Positions 1-8,650 of a stretch of DNA of 64,000 nt are shown one piece after another. This DNA comes from a virus: positions 1-64,000 of the IMG/VR virus record IMGVR_UViG_3300034102_001457. One strand, written 5' to 3'. The notes beneath the pieces were generated by a model, which saw only the letters and a program-made list of their open reading frames with translations, searched no databases and was not told where the DNA came from. A program made the translations under genes and the position numbers. How positions within the stretch are numbered: the stretch's first letter is position 1; each line of letters begins with the position of its first letter.

Positions 1-47
1 TTGATTACTTTGCTTGTTGCTACCTTTACTGTGATTTGTCTGCTCAT
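1..47 (-). CDS. Partial small early gene (MSRQITVKVATSKVI...), runs off the window
   Basis: ATG at 47, GAAAGG RBS at 55-60 and a conserved promoter upstream. Confidence 0.6.
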   Translation of the reverse strand, partial: MSRQITVKVATSKVI

Positions 48-75
48 TGTATTTCCTTTCGTTGGTTGGTTGATT

Positions 76-97
76 AGTATAGCAGGGGGGTCTGACA
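76..97 (-). promoter_or_regulatory. PafBC/RecA-NDp-type promoter P1
   Basis: Minus strand reads TGTCAG-acccccctgc-TATACT. Confidence 0.75.
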
Positions 98-179
98 TTT
101 CCACCCGAAGGTGGAGAGTTCTTACTTACGACATTGGACTAGAACACTCTCTAAACTGTCCCTGTTTCGTTATGCTTAT

Positions 180-338
180 TTAGTTAGCAGTTGCGCTTGT
201 CCAGCGTTCCTTGCCTTCTACATCAAGCAGAATACGATTTACTCCGCTAGGGTGGTTATCAACGGCTTTGATAACTCCTGTGATACCGCTTGTTGTTGTT
301 GTGTAGGTTTGACCTACTTCTAGTGTTGCGTTTGTCAT
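180..338 (-). CDS. Hypothetical 52-aa protein (MTNATLEVGQTY...)
   Basis: Translated by hand; AACGAAAGG RBS and promoter P2 upstream. Confidence 0.7.
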   Translation of the reverse strand: MTNATLEVGQTYTTTTSGITGVIKAVDNHPSGVNRILLDVEGKERWTSATAN

Positions 339-367
339 TTGTTTCCTTTCGTTTGGTTGGTAGTAGT

Positions 368-389
368 ATTATAGCGGATACCACCGACA
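368..389 (-). promoter_or_regulatory. PafBC/RecA-NDp-type promoter P2
   Basis: TGTCGG-tggtatccgc-TATAAT. Confidence 0.8.
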
Positions 390-417
390 TTTCCCCCCAT
401 TTCTAGGGGGAGTGTCG

Positions 418-433
418 TGTGATACTAGTCACA
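418..433. promoter_or_regulatory. CRP/GlxR-type site
   Basis: TGTGA-tactag-TCACA, perfect consensus. Confidence 0.75.
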
Positions 434-694
434 CTCAGGTAGCCAAAATCCTAAGTGGTGTTGGTCAATAATAGCGGAGGCAGGTGCTGTATCTAATCCT
501 TTATAAGATACGCCTTCAGGCATCTTTATCTGTCGATCAAAATCCTCATCATAGTATGCGTCAATAGCATCTATGCAAGGTTGCACCATAGAAAGTGGAA
601 CGGGTGGGTAATGATTACCCTGTAAGTGATAGGCTAATTGTGTTTCTAAATCTAACACGCTATCCTGAATACCTAGTGCAGTTATGCTTCCCAT
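425..694 (-). CDS. Hypothetical phage protein (HLQGNHYPPVP motif)
   Basis: ORF track; GAAGGT RBS; same strand as neighbours. Confidence 0.75.
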   Translation of the reverse strand: MGSITALGIQDSVLDLETQLAYHLQGNHYPPVPLSMVQPCIDAIDAYYDEDFDRQIKMPEGVSYKGLDTAPASAIIDQHHLGFWLPECD

Positions 695-696
695 TG

Positions 697-921
697 TTAG
701 TTACCTTCCTTGATAGTCATTTCAGCCCAAGTGTTAAACTCATTAGCAGTTTTTAATACATTAGATTGAGCAAGGGCGTGTAGCGTTGCTTCCTTGCACA
801 TCTCTGTCATTGTTTTTTCATCAAGAGCAATTAAGCGTGGCAATAAGTTTGCAGGGATAGTATCAAGGTTAATGATAGCCTCGAAAGTTATTGTGTGTGG
901 AACTTTGATTAGATTAGACAT
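697..921 (-). CDS. Hypothetical protein
   Basis: ORF with GAAAGG RBS downstream of P3. Confidence 0.7.
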   Translation of the reverse strand: MSNLIKVPHTITFEAIINLDTIPANLLPRLIALDEKTMTEMCKEATLHALAQSNVLKTANEFNTWAEMTIKEGN

Positions 922-950
922 TTGTTACCTTTCGTTGTTGGAATAAGAGT

Positions 951-972
951 ATTTTAGCATACCCCACTGACA
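951..972 (-). promoter_or_regulatory. PafBC/RecA-NDp-type promoter P3
   Basis: TGTCAG-tggggtatgc-TAAAAT. Confidence 0.8.
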
Positions 973-1000
973 TTACCTAATCTATTCCCCGCATAAGCCT

Positions 1001-1016
1001 TGTGATAAATCTCACA
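1001..1016. promoter_or_regulatory. CRP/GlxR-type site
   Basis: TGTGA-taaatc-TCACA. Confidence 0.75.
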
Positions 1017-1029
1017 AATTTCCAGGGTT

Positions 1030-1059
1030 TGTGGATAACTCCCGTAAACCTGTGGATAA
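1030..1059 (-). promoter_or_regulatory. Two tandem DnaA boxes
   Basis: TGTGGATAA (reverse complement TTATCCACA) at 1030-1038 and 1051-1059. Confidence 0.7.
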
Positions 1060-1080
1060 CCCCGTAGTATTGCGGGCCTT

Positions 1081-1203
1081 TTATTCCTCCTGGCCCCATA
1101 TGTCGGGATCTATTTCTGCTAAGTACTCTTTAGCAGCTTTTTTCTGATCTTGATCACCAACAACAGAATTTATTAATGCATTAAAATAATTAAGCTCCGC
1201 CAT
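1081..1203 (-). CDS. Hypothetical 40-aa protein (MAELNYFNAL...)
   Basis: Translated by hand; AAGGAG RBS. Confidence 0.6.
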   Translation of the reverse strand: MAELNYFNALINSVVGDQDQKKAAKEYLAEIDPDIWGQEE

Positions 1204-1215
1204 TTTTATTTCTCC

Positions 1216-1935
1216 TTATTTTTTAGTTGCGCTAAATCTAATATCTGCTTTACCATAAACACATAACCCACACGATACACACGCAGAACCTGCATTGCTA
1301 ATTAGTGGAATTGATTTCATATTTTCAGGGCACTTAGCACCAGGCTTGCCCGTCAATTCTTTCATTGTGCTTTCGGTGACGGCGAATGTCTTCCCTAAAT
1401 ATGCAAGGCGAATTCCCTCATTTACTTTTAGTTCGTGGCCGATTTCTTTATTCTCATCGTCGGTAGAATAGTAAAGAGATAAATTAGATACATCCTTTAG
1501 AATAAGCGCTGCAGACTTTACACGTGTGTAAACCCAGAATTGAACATCGGTGTGCTCATTGATTACATTCTTCCAGGCATAAGTATAGAAATCATTGAAG
1601 AAATCTCCGTCCCAGTGGATACGGAATAGCATAGGAGCGTCTTTCTTTACACAATCAGCCTTGAAATCAATAATCATTTCATTTAGCAATTGATACATTG
1701 TTTCCATATCGGCATTGCGTAGCAATTCCCAATTGTGTAGCAGATTAGTTTTTACTCCCTTGAAGAGTTTTTCCAATTTGCCTGCATAGCAAACAGTCTC
1801 GCAGATAGACGTAGCGCCAGGACATGAGAAATCTTTTCCTGCGGGTAATCCGAACGTGTTAGCAATTGCGGCTTGCTTTCCATTTTTTGTGACAAGGTTA
1901 GCCACCTTTCTATCATTAGAGCGTTTCAATTTCAT
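1216..1935 (-). CDS. GP88-like Cys-rich (radical-SAM-like) protein
   Basis: CPGATSICETVCYA, RIHWDGDF, WVYTR and C-terminal CxxCxxC motifs; start moved to 1935 on the basis of the RBS and P4. Confidence 0.75.
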   Translation of the reverse strand: MKLKRSNDRKVANLVTKNGKQAAIANTFGLPAGKDFSCPGATSICETVCYAGKLEKLFKGVKTNLLHNWELLRNADMETMYQLLNEMIIDFKADCVKKDAPMLFRIHWDGDFFNDFYTYAWKNVINEHTDVQFWVYTRVKSAALILKDVSNLSLYYSTDDENKEIGHELKVNEGIRLAYLGKTFAVTESTMKELTGKPGAKCPENMKSIPLISNAGSACVSCGLCVYGKADIRFSATKK

Positions 1936-1963
1936 TAGTTGGCCTTTCGTTGGTAAGGTTGTA

Positions 1964-1985
1964 AGTATAGCAGAATGGACCGACA
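1964..1985 (-). promoter_or_regulatory. PafBC/RecA-NDp-type promoter P4
   Basis: TGTCGG-tccattctgc-TATACT. Confidence 0.8.
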
Positions 1986-2012
1986 TTTTACGCAACACGC
2001 TGCAAATTCCAG

Positions 2013-2028
2013 GGTGTTTTAGATCACA
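2013..2028. promoter_or_regulatory. Degenerate CRP-type site
   Basis: GGTGT-tttaga-TCACA keeps the GTG-N8-CAC core and lies at the conserved distance from P4. Confidence 0.5.
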
Positions 2029-2055
2029 GTCGTAACGACACGCCCGACTCCGCAG
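2029..2055. repeat. 27-bp exact repeat, copy 1 (copy 2 at 3485-3511)
   Basis: GTCGTAACGACACGCCCGACTCCGCAG. Confidence 0.9.
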
Positions 2056-2067
2056 CTCTGCGGGCTT

Positions 2068-2083
2068 TCGAACACCTGTTCTA
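2068..2083. promoter_or_regulatory. Actinobacterial LexA (SOS) box
   Basis: TCGAAC-acct-GTTCTA, one mismatch from TCGAAC-N4-GTTCGA. Confidence 0.6.
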
Positions 2084-2088
2084 ATTAA

Positions 2089-2220
2089 TTATTGATCGAA
2101 TTTATTTTTATGTTTTATTTTGCGTGTGTATTTTTTTTTATTGCGAACAGGTTGCGCCGCATTACTGCGACGCAATTCCTGAATGCGTTTTACTTTATCT
2201 TGAAGAGAAGTTAGGAACAT
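2089..2220 (-). CDS. 43-aa highly basic protein (ELRRSNAAQPVRNKKKYTRKIKHK)
   Basis: Translated by hand; overlaps the end of the upstream gene. Confidence 0.6.
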   Translation of the reverse strand: MFLTSLQDKVKRIQELRRSNAAQPVRNKKKYTRKIKHKNKFDQ

Positions 2221-2386
2221 TATACCCACTCGCTTCGTGAAATCGTTTTACATCAAATCGCTCATTATCTTTCGCAAACATTTCAGCGAAATCATTTACA
2301 ATTTTAGAAAATACAGCAGGGTGAGTTTTGTTGCTAGCATACTTTAGAATTTCTGCGGTTGCTATGTAGTCTTTTCTAGTCATCAT
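2195..2386 (-). CDS. Hypothetical protein (MMTRKDY...DNERFDVKRF)
   Basis: ORF track; start trimmed to the ATG overlapping the upstream stop. Confidence 0.7.
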   Translation of the reverse strand: MMTRKDYIATAEILKYASNKTHPAVFSKIVNDFAEMFAKDNERFDVKRFHEASGYNVPNFSSR

Positions 2387-2586
2387 TTTACTACGACCTC
2401 TCCTGTGCGATAAAATAGTTTTGTATAGCATTTGCCAGTTGGTGTAAATAAATTTACAGTTGAGTATTCATTAGCAGAACCCCAATCGGTAAAACGGAAA
2501 AAGTTTTCCCACGCACCAAATTCATTTTCGTATTCGGCAGACCAGTGGGGGGCGTTGCTATCATAGGCGCAAGTTAGTTTATACAT
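2383..2586 (-). CDS. Hypothetical protein
   Basis: ORF with GAAAGG RBS, downstream of P5. Confidence 0.7.
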   Translation of the reverse strand: MYKLTCAYDSNAPHWSAEYENEFGAWENFFRFTDWGSANEYSTVNLFTPTGKCYTKLFYRTGEVVVK

Positions 2587-2630
2587 TAGTTTCCCTTTCG
2601 TTAGTTATACATTTACATTGTGTTATTACT

Positions 2631-2652
2631 ATTGTATCAGTTGCCACCGACA
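2631..2652 (-). promoter_or_regulatory. PafBC/RecA-NDp-type promoter P5
   Basis: TGTCGG-tggcaactga-TACAAT. Confidence 0.75.
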
Positions 2653-2704
2653 CAATAGCGAGAGTATCGCAATTATCGCAAATCCACATTTCAGCAATTT
2701 TCAT

Positions 2705-2851
2705 TTATTTATTCTCCTGAAAAAAACTGAGCGGATTACATTGGCAAGCCTCTACATCATAATTATTTTCATCTCCGTAGTATAGCCAGCCATTTCCGTA
2801 GCAGGTATCACACTCTAAAATCTGAGTGTATAATTCTTTCATTCTACCCAT
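2705..2851 (-). CDS. 48-aa Zn-finger-like protein (CDTCYG...CQC)
   Basis: Translated by hand; GAAAGG RBS; downstream of P6. Confidence 0.65.
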   Translation of the reverse strand: MGRMKELYTQILECDTCYGNGWLYYGDENNYDVEACQCNPLSFFQENK

Positions 2852-2883
2852 TTAGGTTTTCCCTTTCGTTTGTTGATTTTGTA

Positions 2884-2905
2884 ATTGTAGCAGATAGCAC
2901 TGACA
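2884..2905 (-). promoter_or_regulatory. PafBC/RecA-NDp-type promoter P6
   Basis: TGTCAG-tgctatctgc-TACAAT. Confidence 0.75.
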
Positions 2906-2965
2906 AGGCTTGCGCCTTGCTTGCCTCACGTTGTGCGATAACGTGTTGTTTGAATTCGTCTAAGT

Positions 2966-3091
2966 TCATTCGAACGCACCTTCCTCTAATAATCCTAATT
3001 CGATGTTGAATAATTCATCGGGTGTTGCTTCGGATAAATCTACCCAGCCAGCACCCTCGTTGTCCATTCGGAAAATTTCGATGTATCCCAT
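2966..3091 (-). CDS. 41-aa acidic protein (MGYIEIFRMDNEGAGWVD...)
   Basis: Translated by hand; tightly packed with neighbours. Confidence 0.6.
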   Translation of the reverse strand: MGYIEIFRMDNEGAGWVDLSEATPDELFNIELGLLEEGAFE

Positions 3092-3093
3092 TA

Positions 3094-3300
3094 TTATTCA
3101 CCAACCTTTACTGCGATTGTTGCGAATTTATTTCGCAGACCGCCCGCATTTATTTCGATTAGATACGCTTCAGTTTTTTCACCATACCAAATTTCTGGGC
3201 GGTGTTCGGCAGATACAATTTCGCCAGAAAAGTGGCGATTGCGTGAGCGATAGTTTTTCCCTACAAGTAGGCTTTCGATTGTGTATAGTTTGGTAGCCAT
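3094..3300 (-). CDS. Hypothetical protein
   Basis: ORF track; RBS; downstream of P7. Confidence 0.7.
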   Translation of the reverse strand: MATKLYTIESLLVGKNYRSRNRHFSGEIVSAEHRPEIWYGEKTEAYLIEINAGGLRNKFATIAVKVGE

Positions 3301-3335
3301 TGGCAGACCTTCTTTCGTTTGTTGTTATGTATGGA

Positions 3336-3357
3336 ATTATACACGAACCCACTGACA
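3336..3357 (-). promoter_or_regulatory. PafBC/RecA-NDp-type promoter P7
   Basis: TGTCAG-tgggttcgtg-TATAAT. Confidence 0.8.
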
Positions 3358-3405
3358 TTTTCACATTACTAGCCAGTAAATCCAAATAGTGAGACGCTCA
3401 AGCCG

Positions 3406-3421
3406 TGTGATACTAATCACA
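3406..3421. promoter_or_regulatory. CRP/GlxR-type site
   Basis: TGTGA-tactaa-TCACA. Confidence 0.75.
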
Positions 3422-3484
3422 TCAAAATGTCCGATTTGTCTGTCAAATCGACACGCCGTAGAATTCAGGGATTTTTATAACAAT

Positions 3485-3511
3485 GTCGTAACGACACGCC
3501 CGACTCCGCAG
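3485..3511. repeat. 27-bp exact repeat, copy 2
   Basis: Identical to 2029-2055. Confidence 0.9.
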
Positions 3512-3559
3512 TAGTTGCGGGCCAGCTTGATTTTGTCAAGCCGACACGCCGTTATTTAT

Positions 3560-3757
3560 TTATTCATTTTCTAATTCCGCTAAATAATCTTCGTGTTCTA
3601 CTAAACCAATCGCAAACGCAACGGGATCGCAACACTCTAAGATTTCGGCGGGTGTAAAAGTTGAGTAACCAATTTTTACAGTTGGATAAATGTCATTTAG
3701 TAAATCTATAAAACTTTCTTTGATTTCTAAATCTTTTTCTAATTGTGATTTACTCAT
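3560..3757 (-). CDS. Hypothetical acidic protein
   Basis: ORF track. Confidence 0.7.
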   Translation of the reverse strand: MSKSQLEKDLEIKESFIDLLNDIYPTVKIGYSTFTPAEILECCDPVAFAIGLVEHEDYLAELENE

Positions 3758-4337
3758 TTAGTCCCCCATTTTTTATGTCTTTGATTACTGCGATTAGTAG
3801 CGGGATAGTTACGCCCGCTAGTAGTAATTGGACGGCGGTAGTTAGTAAGCGATTAGTAGTCATTACTTATTCTTCTTTCTCTTGTAAATCTTATAGGCGA
3901 TTAGTAGGGCGGTAGTAATTAGGATAGTGTGCCAAGGTAAGTAGATAGCCCCTAAGAAACTATCAAACTCTAATCCGTAGTCGCTAGTTATGTATAACTC
4001 AAATCCGTTTATAGTCATTATTAGTTATCCCAATCTAATGTTAGTGCGGACATTTCTTCTTCTTCGTATTCGCTAAGGCGCAAATCTAAGCCCTCTGCTA
4101 GTGCCTTGTTATAGGCTTCTTCTTCTTCTAGATAGACATAAGCGTCTGCTACATCTGCCTGAATAGTATCCCATTTAGTCATCATTACTTTACCTCTACT
4201 TCTCTAATGTTGTAAGTGAAACCCTTACCTAGTTTTTCTAATTCTTTTATTACGGCTAAGATTTCTTCGGGCTTGTTAGCCTTTTGATTTACGGCTAATA
4301 GTTGAGAGCCTTGCCATAGTGTATAAGTGATAGTCAT
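3750..4337 (-). CDS. Four tiny coupled ORFs (4337-4185, 4185-4021, 4018-3863, 3863-3750); the last two are membrane peptides
   Basis: Translated by hand; stop/start junctions overlap or abut; downstream of P8. Confidence 0.55.
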
Positions 4338-4372
4338 TATCTGTTCTTCTTTCGTTAGTAGTTATAGTAGGA

Positions 4373-4394
4373 ATTGTAGCGCATAGCGCCGACA
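4373..4394 (-). promoter_or_regulatory. PafBC/RecA-NDp-type promoter P8
   Basis: TGTCGG-cgctatgcgc-TACAAT. Confidence 0.8.
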
Positions 4395-4423
4395 TTGTAT
4401 AGCGACACGCCGTTAGGCGTTAG

Positions 4424-4439
4424 TGTGATTATGGTCACA
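4424..4439. promoter_or_regulatory. CRP/GlxR-type site
   Basis: TGTGA-ttatgg-TCACA. Confidence 0.75.
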
Positions 4440-4521
4440 CACGGACTCGATTTCGTGTCCGAACTCCTCTACGAGTTCCTCGTAGATTTCGTCCATATAA
4501 TCAAGATAATCGTTCATTAGA

Positions 4522-4728
4522 TTACTCCCAACTTCTAGTAGTAGCATAAACCTTGCGAGTGCTAGGCTTGTAATTTTCTAACTCTCTTAGATTAGTTTCT
4601 AAGATAGTGCCTCTTAGGGCTAGTAGGTCAAGATACTCATTAGCATCTTGTTCGGTATTCATTAGAACACCTAAGCAAGTAGAAAACTCGGTGTCCGAGT
4701 ATTGGACTTTATAACTTAGTGAAAACAT
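4522..4728 (-). CDS. Hypothetical protein
   Basis: ORF track; GAAGGA RBS; downstream of P9. Confidence 0.7.
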   Translation of the reverse strand: MFSLSYKVQYSDTEFSTCLGVLMNTEQDANEYLDLLALRGTILETNLRELENYKPSTRKVYATTRSWE

Positions 4729-4779
4729 TTTGTTTTCCTTTCTTTATCAAGAACCTTTCTTGATTTTCTTTATAGTATA

Positions 4780-4801
4780 ACTCTAGCAGGGGGGACTGAC
4801 A
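4780..4801 (-). promoter_or_regulatory. PafBC/RecA-NDp-type promoter P9
   Basis: TGTCAG-tcccccctgc-TAGAGT. Confidence 0.7.
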
Positions 4802-4839
4802 AAAAGGGGGGTTACTGGCAAGTATTCTCAAACTATTTT

Positions 4840-4855
4840 TGTGATTAGCATCACA
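4840..4855. promoter_or_regulatory. CRP/GlxR-type site
   Basis: TGTGA-ttagca-TCACA. Confidence 0.75.
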
Positions 4856-4967
4856 CTCACGCTCAAAGTTAGTAGCCTATGGGCGCACTAAATAGACAAA
4901 ACGGACATTTATTTATTCGTGATCATACATGATAAAAATATATTAACATTTTGTGAAATATGAAATG

Positions 4968-5318
4968 CTAGTCGACTGAGATTTTATTCCTAAGTTTTTT
5001 TCTATACGAAGTATCGACGGGTGCATACCTAGGATGTTTCTTTGGCTCATTTGTTCTATTACCTTTAGTAAGGTTGCAGATACCGTGAGAAGGCTTTACG
5101 TTTATAAGCTCGTCAGATCCTCCTTTGGTTAAAGGGATTACATGATCTAGCTGTAGTCCATACTTCCATCCAGGTACAAAAGCTTGGCGGGGTGCAGAGT
5201 AATCTATCTGCATACCACATATGTGACAATTACCCCCATGTATAATAAAAATTTCATAGAAGGAGTATAGGTGTGGATCCGTATATCTCTCTATGTTTGC
5301 TTTATTGTTTACTGGCAT
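4968..5318 (-). CDS. HNH endonuclease
   Basis: CHICG...LDHVIPLTKGG...N...HGICNLTKG. Confidence 0.9.
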   Translation of the reverse strand: MPVNNKANIERYTDPHLYSFYEIFIIHGGNCHICGMQIDYSAPRQAFVPGWKYGLQLDHVIPLTKGGSDELINVKPSHGICNLTKGNRTNEPKKHPRYAPVDTSYRKKLRNKISVD

Positions 5319-5393
5319 AACAAAATATTATCAAATAAAAAAAGTTTCGTCAACCCCTTGACCTTAGAATATTTCAAATGTTATACTTCCATA

Positions 5394-5487
5394 GGGGGGT
5401 CGGGGGGTCAGAAAATACAGAAAATACAAAAAATACAAAATATAAAACATATAACATATAACATATATAACATATATAACATATATA
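5394..5487 (+). repeat. G-runs followed by degenerate ~9-bp AT-rich tandem repeats
   Basis: GGGGGGTC x2, then CAGAAAATA/CAAAAAATA/ACATATATA units. Confidence 0.85.
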
Positions 5488-5488
5488 G

Positions 5489-5517
5489 TTGACTAGAATG
5501 TATAGATAGTATATAAT
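5489..5517 (+). promoter_or_regulatory. Sigma70/SigA-type promoter
   Basis: TTGACT-17bp-TATAAT; ATG 6 nt after the -10 (leaderless). Confidence 0.8.
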
Positions 5518-8423: not shown

Positions 8424-8496
8424 TGGACCATAGCTCAGTTGGCAGAGCGGGAAGCTGTTAACTTCTAGGTCCCTGGTTCGAGTCCAGGTGGTCCAG
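8424..8496 (+). tRNA. tRNA-Asn(GTT)
   Basis: TGGACCA/TGGTCCA acceptor stem; GGAAG-CTGTTAA-CTTCT anticodon arm; TTCGAGT T-loop. Confidence 0.95.
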
Positions 8497-8500
8497 CGAT

Positions 8501-8574
8501 GCGAGTGTTACATAATGGTAGTGTCTCTGCCTTCCAAGCAGATAGTGCCAGTTCGATTCTGGTCACTCGCTCCA
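8501..8574 (+). tRNA. tRNA-Gly(TCC)
   Basis: GCGAGTG/CACTCGC acceptor stem; TCTGC-CTTCCAA-GCAGA; encoded CCA. Confidence 0.95.
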
Positions 8575-8575
8575 T

Positions 8576-8647
8576 ATCTCTATAGCTCAGCGGAAGAGCA
8601 ACAGGTTTCTACCCTGTGTGTCGGGAGTTCGAATCTCTCTAGGGATA
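8576..8647 (+). tRNA. tRNA-Arg(TCT)
   Basis: ATCTCTA/TAGGGAT acceptor stem; ACAGG-TTTCTAC-CCTGT; GGA in the D-loop (A20). Confidence 0.9.
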
Positions 8648-8650
8648 CAA

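What the first reader, a model, noticed from the sequence alone, without database searches (positions are those of the whole stretch)
418..4855. Five perfect CRP-type palindromes, helically phased to the early promoters
Seen: TGTGA-N6-TCACA at 418, 1001, 3406, 4424 and 4840, plus a degenerate copy at 2013. Ten fixed bases give a chance expectation of about 0.005 sites per 5 kb. Site centres lie 52.5 (P2), 52.5 (P3), 51.5 (P4), 53.5 (P8), 62.5 (P9) and 72.5 bp (P7) upstream of the first T of the paired -10, i.e. in steps of one helical turn. Established: this is the CRP/GlxR/Rv3676 consensus, and class I CRP activation needs this kind of phasing. Inference: early expression is co-gated by host cAMP-CRP, so metabolic state and damage signal would act as an AND-type logic.
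Basis: partly seen in the sequence, partly recalled or inferred. Interest (0 to 1): 0.85.

Follow-up and report, generated by a model that had tools for sequence, protein, structure and literature searches.

The report
Phased CRP-type boxes on phage promoters
An uncultured lake phage of actinobacteria carries perfect copies of the DNA site of cAMP-receptor-type (CRP/GlxR) regulators, whole helical turns upstream of most promoters of its small-gene block, so a host global regulator probably helps switch these genes on; no binding has been tested.

Summary
The window has five perfect TGTGA-N6-TCACA palindromes, against 0.10 expected in 64 kb. All five lie in the first 4.9 kb, with no one-mismatch copies anywhere.

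Each palindrome sits upstream of a minus-strand promoter of the form TGTCRG-N10-TAnnnT, the published PafBC motif.

Related lake-phage contigs show the same layout:
- Five complete 110-115 kb relatives have 5-11 perfect sites, all in one block.
- Spacings fall at 42.5, 52.5, 62.5, 72.5 and 94.5 bp (period about 10.25 bp, p about 1e-14). An independent IMG/VR-wide scan gives p about 1e-28.
- About 10% of modules are half a turn off, including most orthologues of P3.

The arms are invariant, the spacer is free, and there is no hairpin covariation.

No CRP-family gene was found in the phages. Of 22 sampled small-genome actinobacteria, 21 encode a CRP with the M. tuberculosis/GlxR recognition helix.

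The host-CRP reading is therefore likely but untested. The cAMP and AND-gate parts are unsupported. The inferred centres (-64.5 and so on) are about 3 bp off E. coli class I positions. This scan had already noted the same architecture in at least 10 related phage genomes.

The parts
418..433 (.). Perfect CRP-type palindrome S1 upstream of P2. Its centre is 52.5 bp from the first T of the -10 (inferred -64.5). It overlaps the stop codon (425-427) of the upstream ORF 425-694(-).
1001..1016 (.). Perfect palindrome S2 upstream of P3, at 52.5 bp. Most orthologues carry it at 57.5 bp.
2013..2028 (.). Two-mismatch copy upstream of P4 (the GP88 operon), at 51.5 bp. It is probably a decayed site.
3406..3421 (.). 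Perfect palindrome S3 upstream of P7, at 72.5 bp. It lies directly behind a terminator-like hairpin.
4424..4439 (.). Perfect palindrome S4 upstream of P8, at 53.5 bp.
4840..4855 (.). Perfect palindrome S5 upstream of P9, at 62.5 bp (68.5 bp if TATACT is the -10).
76..97 (-). P1, a PafBC-type promoter (TGTCAG-N10-TATACT) with no palindrome.
   Evidence: motif per PMC8635444
368..389 (-). P2, a PafBC-type promoter (TGTCGG-N10-TATAAT).
951..972 (-). P3, a PafBC-type promoter (TGTCAG-N10-TAAAAT).
1964..1985 (-). P4, a PafBC-type promoter that drives the GP88 (PF17338) gene.
2631..2652 (-). P5, a PafBC-type promoter with no palindrome.
2884..2905 (-). P6, a PafBC-type promoter with no palindrome.
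3336..3357 (-). P7, a PafBC-type promoter.
4373..4394 (-). P8, a PafBC-type promoter.
4780..4801 (-). P9, a PafBC-type promoter (TGTCAG-N10-TAGAGT). It can also be read as TTGTCA-17-TATACT.
1..4728 (-). Block of about 20 small genes in short operons with strong Shine-Dalgarno leaders. Its early timing is presumed. No Pfam DNA-binding domain was found.
3431..3451 (-). Terminator-like hairpin that ends the P8 operon, immediately before S3.
1030..1059 (.). Two perfect DnaA boxes (TGTGGATAA at 1030 and 1051), just upstream of S2 with respect to P3.

Best explanation
The palindromes are high-affinity operator sites for a dimeric CRP/GlxR-type regulator of the actinobacterial host.

They lie upstream of, and never overlap, PafBC-type core promoters (-26 element plus -10, no -35). 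These promoters drive the phage's block of small, presumably early, genes. The sites sit on one face of the helix, with inferred centres at -54.5, -64.5, -74.5, -84.5 and -106.5. The bound dimer therefore most likely touches the transcription complex (RNA polymerase alpha-CTD or PafBC-adapted holoenzyme) and raises initiation. This is a class-I-like upstream activator arrangement on a non-canonical core promoter.

Shown here:
- the sites, their enrichment and their restriction to this block;
- arm-specific conservation and the helical phasing;
- the absence of a CRP-family gene in the phages;
- the presence of a matching CRP in candidate host lineages.

Inferred: that CRP is the binder, that the effect is activation, and that the genes are early. 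Dependence on cAMP is open.
For: - Five perfect sites against 0.10 expected. All lie in 4.5 kb and there are no one-mismatch sites.
- In five complete relatives all 5-11 sites lie in one block, with a reversed-pattern control of 0.
- Eighty related loci carry 409 perfect sites. 61% of 698 unique promoter contexts have a site with at most one mismatch. No perfect site lies closer than 41.5 bp to the -10.
- Phasing: 77 pairs of ortholog group and spacing give R=0.65 at 10.25 bp, p about 1e-14. An IMG/VR-wide scan that allowed any spacing from 42.5 to 72.5 bp gave 109 new dereplicated modules with R=0.77, p about 1e-28. Within ortholog groups, spacing changes in steps of about 10 bp.
- There are 79 distinct 16-mers with invariant arms and a free spacer. 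The arms are footprints as strong as the -26 and -10 elements.
- In one-mismatch sites the GTG/CAC core is almost never hit. Only 1 of 19 two-mismatch sites is compensatory.
- The phages show no PF13545 or PF00027 hit and no HTH_3 hit.
- In the 22 small-genome Actinomycetia searched, 21 have a roughly 230-aa CRP with the helix GASRETVNKALADF, and all have tandem WYL (PafB/PafC-like) genes. The CRP is an orthologue of Rv3676 (3D0S/3MZH, E 8e-79) and of GlxR (4CYD).
- Literature: occupancy by M. tuberculosis CRP falls with mismatches, and upstream sites go with activation (PMC4117774). The whiB1 CRP1 site at -58.5 is activating (PMC2844151).
- Cellular precedent: Nocardia dnaX has a CRP palindrome upstream of a PafBC-type leaderless promoter in several Nocardia genomes.
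Against: - There are no binding or expression data.
- The host is not identified.
- The inferred centres are about 3 bp off the E. coli class I series, and the transcription start is not mapped.
- About 10% of modules are half a turn off. The P3 orthologue tolerates both 52.5 and 57.5 bp.
- Three of the nine promoters here, and whole ortholog groups elsewhere, lack sites.
- The 1.3-1.5 Mb actinobacterial genomes sampled have 0-1 perfect site of their own. They also lack a class III adenylate cyclase.
- Two weak HTH-like phage ORFs could be alternative binders: a 160-aa ORF with an HTH_17 hit and a roughly 50-aa ORF with a sigma70_r4-like hit, both below cut-off.
- The cultured relative Streptomyces phage Genie2 lacks both motifs.
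- In Nocardia dnaX the spacing is not phased.
Confidence: 0.55

Rival explanations
1. The palindromes are operators of a phage-encoded (or virion-delivered) dimeric DNA-binding protein. One version: a product of the palindrome-free promoters (P1, P5, P6) turns on a second wave. Another: a later protein shuts the block off. The likeness to the CRP consensus would then be coincidence or mimicry.
For: - There are two promoter classes, with and without a site.
- Most small gene products have no recognisable family.
- All five complete relatives have a conserved roughly 50-aa ORF with a weak sigma70_r4-like HTH. Four of five genomes searched have a 160-aa ORF with a weak HTH_17 hit.
- Helical phasing would be expected for any factor that contacts the polymerase.
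Against: - The half-site, the spacing and the tolerance profile (invariant GTG/CAC core) are those of the CRP family.
- No CRP-family domain (PF13545) and no Cro/CI-type HTH_3 domain was found in the five complete genomes; cNMP_binding (PF00027) was searched only in this contig and not found.
- The HTH_17 ORF was not found in G003, which has seven sites.
- The same intergenic regions hold exact sites of other host factors: PafBC-type promoters and DnaA boxes.
Confidence: 0.2
2. Host CRP does bind, but the main effect is not activation. The sites might damp or delay the block in certain host states (a hibernation-like brake). Or the perfect sites, multiplied by replication, might soak up CRP and so reprogramme host transcription.
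For: - The phage sites are perfect consensus, while the sampled 1.3-1.5 Mb actinobacterial genomes have 0-1 perfect site.
- Occupancy rises with match to the consensus (PMC4117774).
- The inferred centres are off the canonical activating face of E. coli (geometry).
- A minority class lies half a turn away.
Against: - A pure sponge needs no fixed helical phase with a promoter, yet the phase is very strong.
- The sites never overlap the core promoter, where CRP-family repression usually acts (PMC4117774).
- There are only 5-11 sites per genome.
Confidence: 0.15
3. The palindromes act as RNA or DNA structures and not as protein sites. Examples would be operon-end hairpins, processing sites or recombination hot spots.
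For: - They lie at the 3' ends of the preceding operons, and S1 overlaps a stop codon.
- They fold into 6-7 bp hairpins of -6 to -7.7 kcal/mol.
Against: - There is no U tract behind the hairpins, and z-scores are modest.
- The arms are sequence-invariant, with no compensatory changes (1 of 19).
- Position is quantised with respect to the downstream promoter, not the upstream gene end.
Confidence: 0.03

Closest known systems
Class I CRP (CAP)-dependent promoters of E. coli (lac P1 type; sites at -61.5, -71.5, -81.5/-82.5, -91.5/-92.5; as summarised in PMC2844151)
   Same: Both have the same 16-bp dyad, placed upstream of the core promoter without overlapping it. Both require one helical face, with steps of one turn. 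Tandem sites about two turns apart occur in some relatives (94.5 plus 71.5 bp).
   Different: The core promoter has no -35 element and instead carries a PafBC-type -26 element. The inferred centres (-54.5, -64.5, -74.5, -84.5) are about 3 bp off the E. coli series. The setting is a phage gene block with 5-11 perfect consensus sites. The role of cAMP is unknown.
M. tuberculosis CRP (Rv3676) and C. glutamicum GlxR regulons, for example whiB1 with CRP1 at -58.5 (PMC2844151; ChIP-seq in PMC4117774)
   Same: The consensus is the same. The recognition helix of CRP from candidate host lineages is identical. Upstream sites go with activation, and perfect sites are the best occupied.
   Different: Cellular regulons mostly use imperfect sites at varied positions. 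Here the sites are perfect, arrayed and strictly phased. No member of these regulons is known to me to sit on a phage.
PafBC-dependent (RecA-NDp) promoters read by sigma adaptation (PMC8635444)
   Same: All nine core promoters match tGTCgg-N10-tA-N3-T.
   Different: The published promoters are cellular DNA-damage genes, and no upstream CRP input is described.
Host-takeover early-gene modules of large lytic phages (SPO1 terminal redundancy, T5 pre-early region; from my own knowledge)
   Same: Both consist of many short operons of tiny genes, each with its own strong promoter and ribosome-binding site, at one genome end.
   Different: Those modules use plain strong housekeeping promoters. They have no arrays of host activator sites.

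Membership tests
CRP/GlxR (Rv3676-type) binding site | 16-bp dyad TGTGA-N6-TCACA | tested here: met
   Five perfect copies, and 409 in 80 related loci.
CRP/GlxR (Rv3676-type) binding site | The GTG/CAC core is the most constrained, the flanking arm positions are more tolerant and the spacer is free. | tested here: met
   Among 86 one-mismatch in-phase sites the mismatches fall at positions 5, 12, 16, 15 and 1; only 5 hit G2-T3-G4 and 9 hit C15. There are 79 different spacers.
CRP/GlxR (Rv3676-type) binding site | A cognate CRP with the RETVNKAL recognition helix is present in the host. | tested here: inconclusive
   The host is not identified. Of 22 small-genome Actinomycetia sampled, 21 have it, as an orthologue of Rv3676/GlxR. 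Complete relatives encode WhiB, which points to an actinobacterial host.
CRP/GlxR (Rv3676-type) binding site | Physical binding by CRP, and the effect of cAMP | not testable with these tools
   This needs EMSA or footprinting. PF00211 cyclase was not found in the 22 genomes or in the phages.
Class I CRP-dependent promoter | The site lies upstream of the core promoter and does not overlap it. | tested here: met
   No perfect site lies closer than 41.5 bp to the -10 in 698 contexts.
Class I CRP-dependent promoter | Helical-face dependence (steps of about 10.5 bp) | tested here: met
   R=0.65-0.77 at 10-10.25 bp, p 1e-14 to 1e-28. About 10% of modules are off phase.
Class I CRP-dependent promoter | Centres at -61.5, -71.5, -82.5, -92.5 from the transcription start | tested here: inconclusive
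   With the PafBC motif geometry (first T of the -10 at -12) the centres are -54.5, -64.5, -74.5 and -84.5, about 3 bp off. The start is not mapped, because the RNA runs gave contigs only.
Class I CRP-dependent promoter | Canonical -35/-10 core promoter | tested here: not met
   The conserved element is TGTCRG at -28..-23. No -35 consensus is present.
PafBC-dependent (RecA-NDp) promoter | Motif tGTCgg-N10-tA-N3-T | tested here: met
   Nine copies on the minus strand in 4.8 kb; the motif is as given in PMC8635444.
PafBC-dependent (RecA-NDp) promoter | Transcription depends on PafBC. | not testable with these tools
   Tandem WYL genes are present in all 22 sampled small actinobacterial genomes. 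No functional test was possible.
Intrinsic terminator or structured RNA | Stable stem followed by a U tract; covariation that keeps pairing | tested here: not met
   Hairpins of -6 to -7.7 kcal/mol with no U tract. Only 1 of 19 double changes is compensatory.
Phage repressor operator (Cro/CI type) | The phage encodes the cognate HTH repressor, and the operators overlap the promoter. | tested here: not met
   There is no HTH_3 in the five complete relatives, and the sites never overlap the core promoter. Other folds are not excluded.

The most novel reading that the evidence does not exclude
A large group of lytic lake actinophages starts infection through a two-input gate built entirely from host regulators. 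PafBC (the single-stranded-DNA/damage sensor) replaces the -35 contact. CRP, docked at -64.5 minus whole turns, acts on the PafBC-adapted polymerase in a geometry different from classical class I. This would let the phage tune or postpone its takeover programme according to the host's physiological state in nutrient-poor water.
Probability: 0.3. Interest if true: 0.85.

Novelty: new variant of a known kind. Interest (0 to 1): 0.65.

Why it matters
If host CRP really docks at these sites, a widespread group of uncultured freshwater phages reads a host global regulator at the very first step of infection. It would do so on promoters that already copy the host's DNA-damage promoters. That would be a clear case of a lytic phage wiring its takeover genes to host state using only host transcription factors.

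It would also provide a natural series of spacing variants (42.5 to 94.5 bp) for working out how a CRP-type activator cooperates with sigma adaptation by PafBC. No paper I could find addresses that question.

The test is easy. The recognition helix is identical in M. tuberculosis CRP and, as far as I know, in M. smegmatis Crp and C. glutamicum GlxR, so standard proteins and strains can serve as proxies.

Tried and rejected
- A near-identity search of the first 6 kb against cultured phages found nothing.
- The cultured relative Streptomyces phage Genie2 (portal 58% identical) has neither the palindromes nor TGTCRG promoters in its first 14 kb. The architecture cannot be studied in that cultured phage.
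- Host identification failed. The ribonucleotide reductase query found only phage-like contigs binned into unrelated MAGs. A 16.7-kb DNA query against 22 small actinobacterial genomes gave only tRNA-level similarity.
- Searches for a phage CRP-family, cNMP-binding, cyclase or Cro/CI-type HTH gene were all negative.
- Pfam and PHROGs on 19 small-gene products and neighbours gave no DNA-binding domain.
- RNA evidence: four lake metatranscriptome runs hold pieces of the region, but only as assembled contigs. They show no starts, ends or strand, and DNA carry-over cannot be excluded.
- The genome contigs composite scan is mostly at chance level: I estimate about 270 chance matches in 596 Gb. Only recurrent cases such as Nocardia dnaX mean anything.
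- The LexA-like box at 2068 is not conserved (5 of 80 loci) and was dropped.
- The terminator/hairpin reading was rejected.
- One look-up of earlier findings by motif returned nothing relevant.

Full report
**Setting.** The window is the first 64 kb of a 79,857-bp IMG/VR virus contig that CheckV estimates to be 63% complete. Its G+C content is about 39%. The portal protein is 58-60% identical to those of Streptomyces phages of the Genie2/BillNye type. The 260-aa product of 1216-1998(-) belongs to Pfam GP88, a family of mycobacteriophages and Streptomyces phages. Relatives are very common in lake metagenomes: 209 IMG/VR contigs encode a GP88 relative, and 80 were fetched (L006-L085). Five of these come from complete 110-115 kb genomes, G001-G005, four of which have direct terminal repeats. 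All five encode a WhiB-like protein, a family treated as diagnostic of actinophages (PMC10202952). The host itself could not be identified.

**The observation.** One search finds five perfect TGTGA-N6-TCACA sites, at 418, 1001, 3406, 4424 and 4840. Shuffles give a mean of 0.10 per 64 kb. None occurs elsewhere in the contig, and the window holds no one-mismatch site at all.

The genes of 1-4800 run on the minus strand. They form short operons of tiny genes, each behind a conserved leader with a strong Shine-Dalgarno sequence. Nine promoters of the form TGTCRG-N10-TAnnnT lie on that strand. I checked the motif in the paper: PMC8635444 gives tGTCgg(N10)tA(N3)T, with the 5' part at -28 to -23 and the 3' part as the -10. 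The match is exact.

Distances from palindrome centre to the first T of the -10 are 52.5, 52.5, 72.5, 53.5 and 62.5 bp, and 51.5 bp for the two-mismatch copy at 2013. P1, P5 and P6 have no site.

**Conservation.**
- The 80 related loci contain 409 perfect palindromes in 853 kb.
- In the five complete genomes every one of the 5-11 perfect sites lies in the same small-gene block. The reversed-pattern control gives 0.
- Of 698 unique promoter contexts, 270 have a perfect site and 158 a one-mismatch site within 130 bp upstream. No perfect site lies closer than 41.5 bp to the -10.
- There are 79 different 16-mers. The arms never change and the six central bases vary freely, with G/T/C at position 6 and C/A at position 11.
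- In alignments of orthologous promoter regions the arms stand out as footprints as strong as the -26 and -10 elements.
- Among in-phase one-mismatch sites the changes fall on positions 5, 12, 16, 15 and 1. The G2-T3-G4 core is hit only 5 times in 86.
- Only 1 of 19 two-mismatch sites is compensatory. As RNA the sites form hairpins of only -6 to -7.7 kcal/mol, with no U tract.

This is the behaviour of a sequence-specific protein site whose core is GTG...CAC, as in the CRP family. It is not the behaviour of a hairpin.

**Phasing.** I grouped contexts into orthologous promoters by their downstream sequence and counted each (group, spacing) pair once. This gave 77 pairs. They cluster at 42.5, 52.5, 62.5, 72.5, 83.5 and 94.5 bp. 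The Rayleigh statistic peaks at a period of 10.25 bp (R=0.65, p about 1e-14). Within groups, spacing changes in steps of about 10 bp, for example 62.5/72.5/82.5 or 42.5/52.5/61.5.

As an independent test I scanned all of IMG/VR for the palindrome followed, at any spacing corresponding to 42.5-72.5 bp, by a PafBC-type promoter. Only 8 fell at 57.5-58.5, 4 at 64.5-65.5 and 1 at 45.5 (R=0.77 at 10 bp, p about 1e-28). The sequences between site and promoter differ between groups, so this is not simple copying of one cassette.

The exception matters. Most orthologues of P3 carry the site at 57.5 bp, with an inserted CGACACGCC motif, whereas this window has 52.5 bp. At that promoter a half-turn shift is tolerated.

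**Absolute position.** With the published geometry the first T of the -10 is at -12. Leaderless cellular examples found here agree, since their start codon lies 6 nt behind the -10. The centres are then -54.5, -64.5, -74.5, -84.5 and -106.5. The E. coli class I positions are -61.5, -71.5, -81.5 and -91.5, and the activating whiB1 site of M. tuberculosis is at -58.5 (PMC2844151). The main phage series is therefore about 3 bp, or roughly 100 degrees, off the classical face. The minor class (-69.5/-70.5) is close to it. The start sites are not mapped and the core promoter is of the PafBC type. I therefore rate class I membership as inconclusive on this feature and not met on the feature 'canonical -35'. 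The likeness in working principle remains.

**Who binds?**
- No CRP-family HTH (PF13545) was found in this contig or in the five complete relatives. No cNMP-binding domain (PF00027) was found in this contig, the only record searched for it. No Cro/CI-type HTH_3 was found in the five complete relatives.
- The small-gene products have no recognisable DNA-binding domain.
- Two weak, sub-threshold HTH-like ORFs exist. One is 160 aa with an HTH_17 hit and was not found in G003. The other is about 50 aa with a sigma70_r4-like hit and is present in all five. They keep a phage-encoded binder possible.
- On the host side, the palindrome is far commoner than its reversed control across the 301 Actinomycetia genomes searched; for example, G141 has 20 sites against 0 and G225 has 18 against 1. 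That tally includes six genomes flagged as unpublished (G246, G012, G035, G032, G027, G284). No other claim rests on them.
- Of 22 genomes of 1.3-1.9 Mb, the size class of streamlined lake actinobacteria, 21 encode a roughly 230-aa CRP ending in the helix GASRETVNKALADF. It is an orthologue of M. tuberculosis Rv3676 (3D0S, 3MZH; E 8e-79) and of GlxR (4CYD). All 22 have tandem WYL genes of PafB/PafC size.
- ChIP-seq in M. tuberculosis shows that occupancy rises with match to the consensus and that upstream sites go with activation (PMC4117774).

Those small genomes have 0-1 perfect site of their own, so the phage sites would be the best CRP sites in the cell. This fits strong recruitment but also a sponge effect. 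None of the 22 small genomes, and none of the phages, has a class III adenylate cyclase domain, although the control finds it in C. glutamicum. M. tuberculosis CRP binds DNA with only a small cAMP effect. 'cAMP gating' and an AND gate with a damage signal are therefore not supported by anything I could test.

**Cellular precedent.** A scan of 185,579 species genomes for the composite is mostly at chance level. It did recover a conserved case: dnaX in several Nocardia genomes has a perfect palindrome upstream of a PafBC-type leaderless promoter. The gyrB gene of two freshwater actinobacterial MAGs and uvrC of Sanguibacter have a similar layout. In Nocardia the spacing varies from 54.5 to 67.5 bp and is not phased.

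**Novelty.** Full-text searches for CRP or GlxR sites at phage early promoters, and for PafBC together with phage, found no description of this arrangement. Within this scan the same architecture was already noted in at least 10 related phage genomes. Those are unchecked AI notes that I read after my own analysis, and they agree with it.

**Verdict.** I rate this a new variant of a known kind: upstream, phased CRP-type activator sites on PafBC-type promoters of a lytic phage. I put about 0.55 on host CRP acting as a phased upstream activator, 0.2 on a phage-encoded binder, 0.15 on CRP binding with a mainly negative or titrating role, and 0.03 on a structural RNA or DNA role.

Noticed in passing
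window 1030-1038 and 1051-1059: Two perfect DnaA boxes (TGTGGATAA) lie 21 bp apart, just upstream of the P3 palindrome. TTATCCACA occurs 253 times in 78 of the 80 related loci, against 1 for the reversed control.
   Followed up: partly
window 2036, 3449, 3492, 3542, 4403: A second repeated 9-mer, CGACACGCC (GGCGTGTCG on the coding strand), lies in the same intergenic regions. It occurs 510 times in 79 of the 80 related loci, against 0 for the control. Its ligand is unknown. It is the insert that shifts the P3 palindrome by 5 bp in most relatives.
   Followed up: partly
window 2029-2055 and 3485-3511: An exact 27-bp direct repeat (GTCGTAACGACACGCCCGACTCCGCAG) lies upstream of P4 and of P7. It contains the 9-mer above and the first arm of a CCGCAG...CTGCGG hairpin.
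   Followed up: no
window 2068-2083: An actinobacterial LexA-like box (TCGAAC-N4-GTTCTA). It is not conserved (TCGAAC-N4-GTTC occurs in 5 of 80 related loci), so it is probably chance.
   Followed up: yes
L133, L134, L138, L143, L146, L152, L180, L181, L184 (Nocardia spp.): The dnaX gene (DNA polymerase III tau/gamma) has a perfect CRP palindrome 54.5-67.5 bp upstream of the -10 of a PafBC-type leaderless promoter. A similar layout occurs at gyrB of two freshwater actinobacterial MAGs (L150, L161) and at uvrC of Sanguibacter (L204).
   Followed up: partly
G015-G300 (22 small actinobacterial genomes): All but one have a CRP orthologue in which the cAMP-pocket motif FGELS...RTS is kept. Yet no class III adenylate cyclase domain (PF00211) was found, and they have 0-1 perfect CRP palindrome per genome.
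   Followed up: partly
window 4968-5318(-) and 5400-5490: An HNH endonuclease gene sits at the border between the minus-strand small-gene block and the plus-strand genes. It is followed by short A/T-rich tandem repeats (ACATATA units) and a sigma-70-like promoter at 5358-5387(+).
   Followed up: no
window 8424-8648: Three adjacent tRNA genes (Asn-GTT, Gly-TCC, Arg-TCT). A contig of the 'Aquiluna' MAG (G006:C2) has an 89% identical tRNA-Gly/Arg junction. It may be another mis-binned phage contig.
   Followed up: no
contig 69955-70437 (L005:9955-10437) and G001:56883-56975: Two weak, sub-threshold HTH-like ORFs in the phage family: one of 160 aa with an HTH_17 hit and one of about 50 aa with a sigma70_r4-like hit. 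They are the only candidates for phage DNA-binding regulators seen by Pfam.
   Followed up: partly
window 1-5000: Assembled contigs of four lake metatranscriptome runs (four studies) cover parts of the block, some at 99-100% identity and some spanning promoter and palindrome (for example 142-474). Transcription is not proven, because DNA carry-over is possible.
   Followed up: partly
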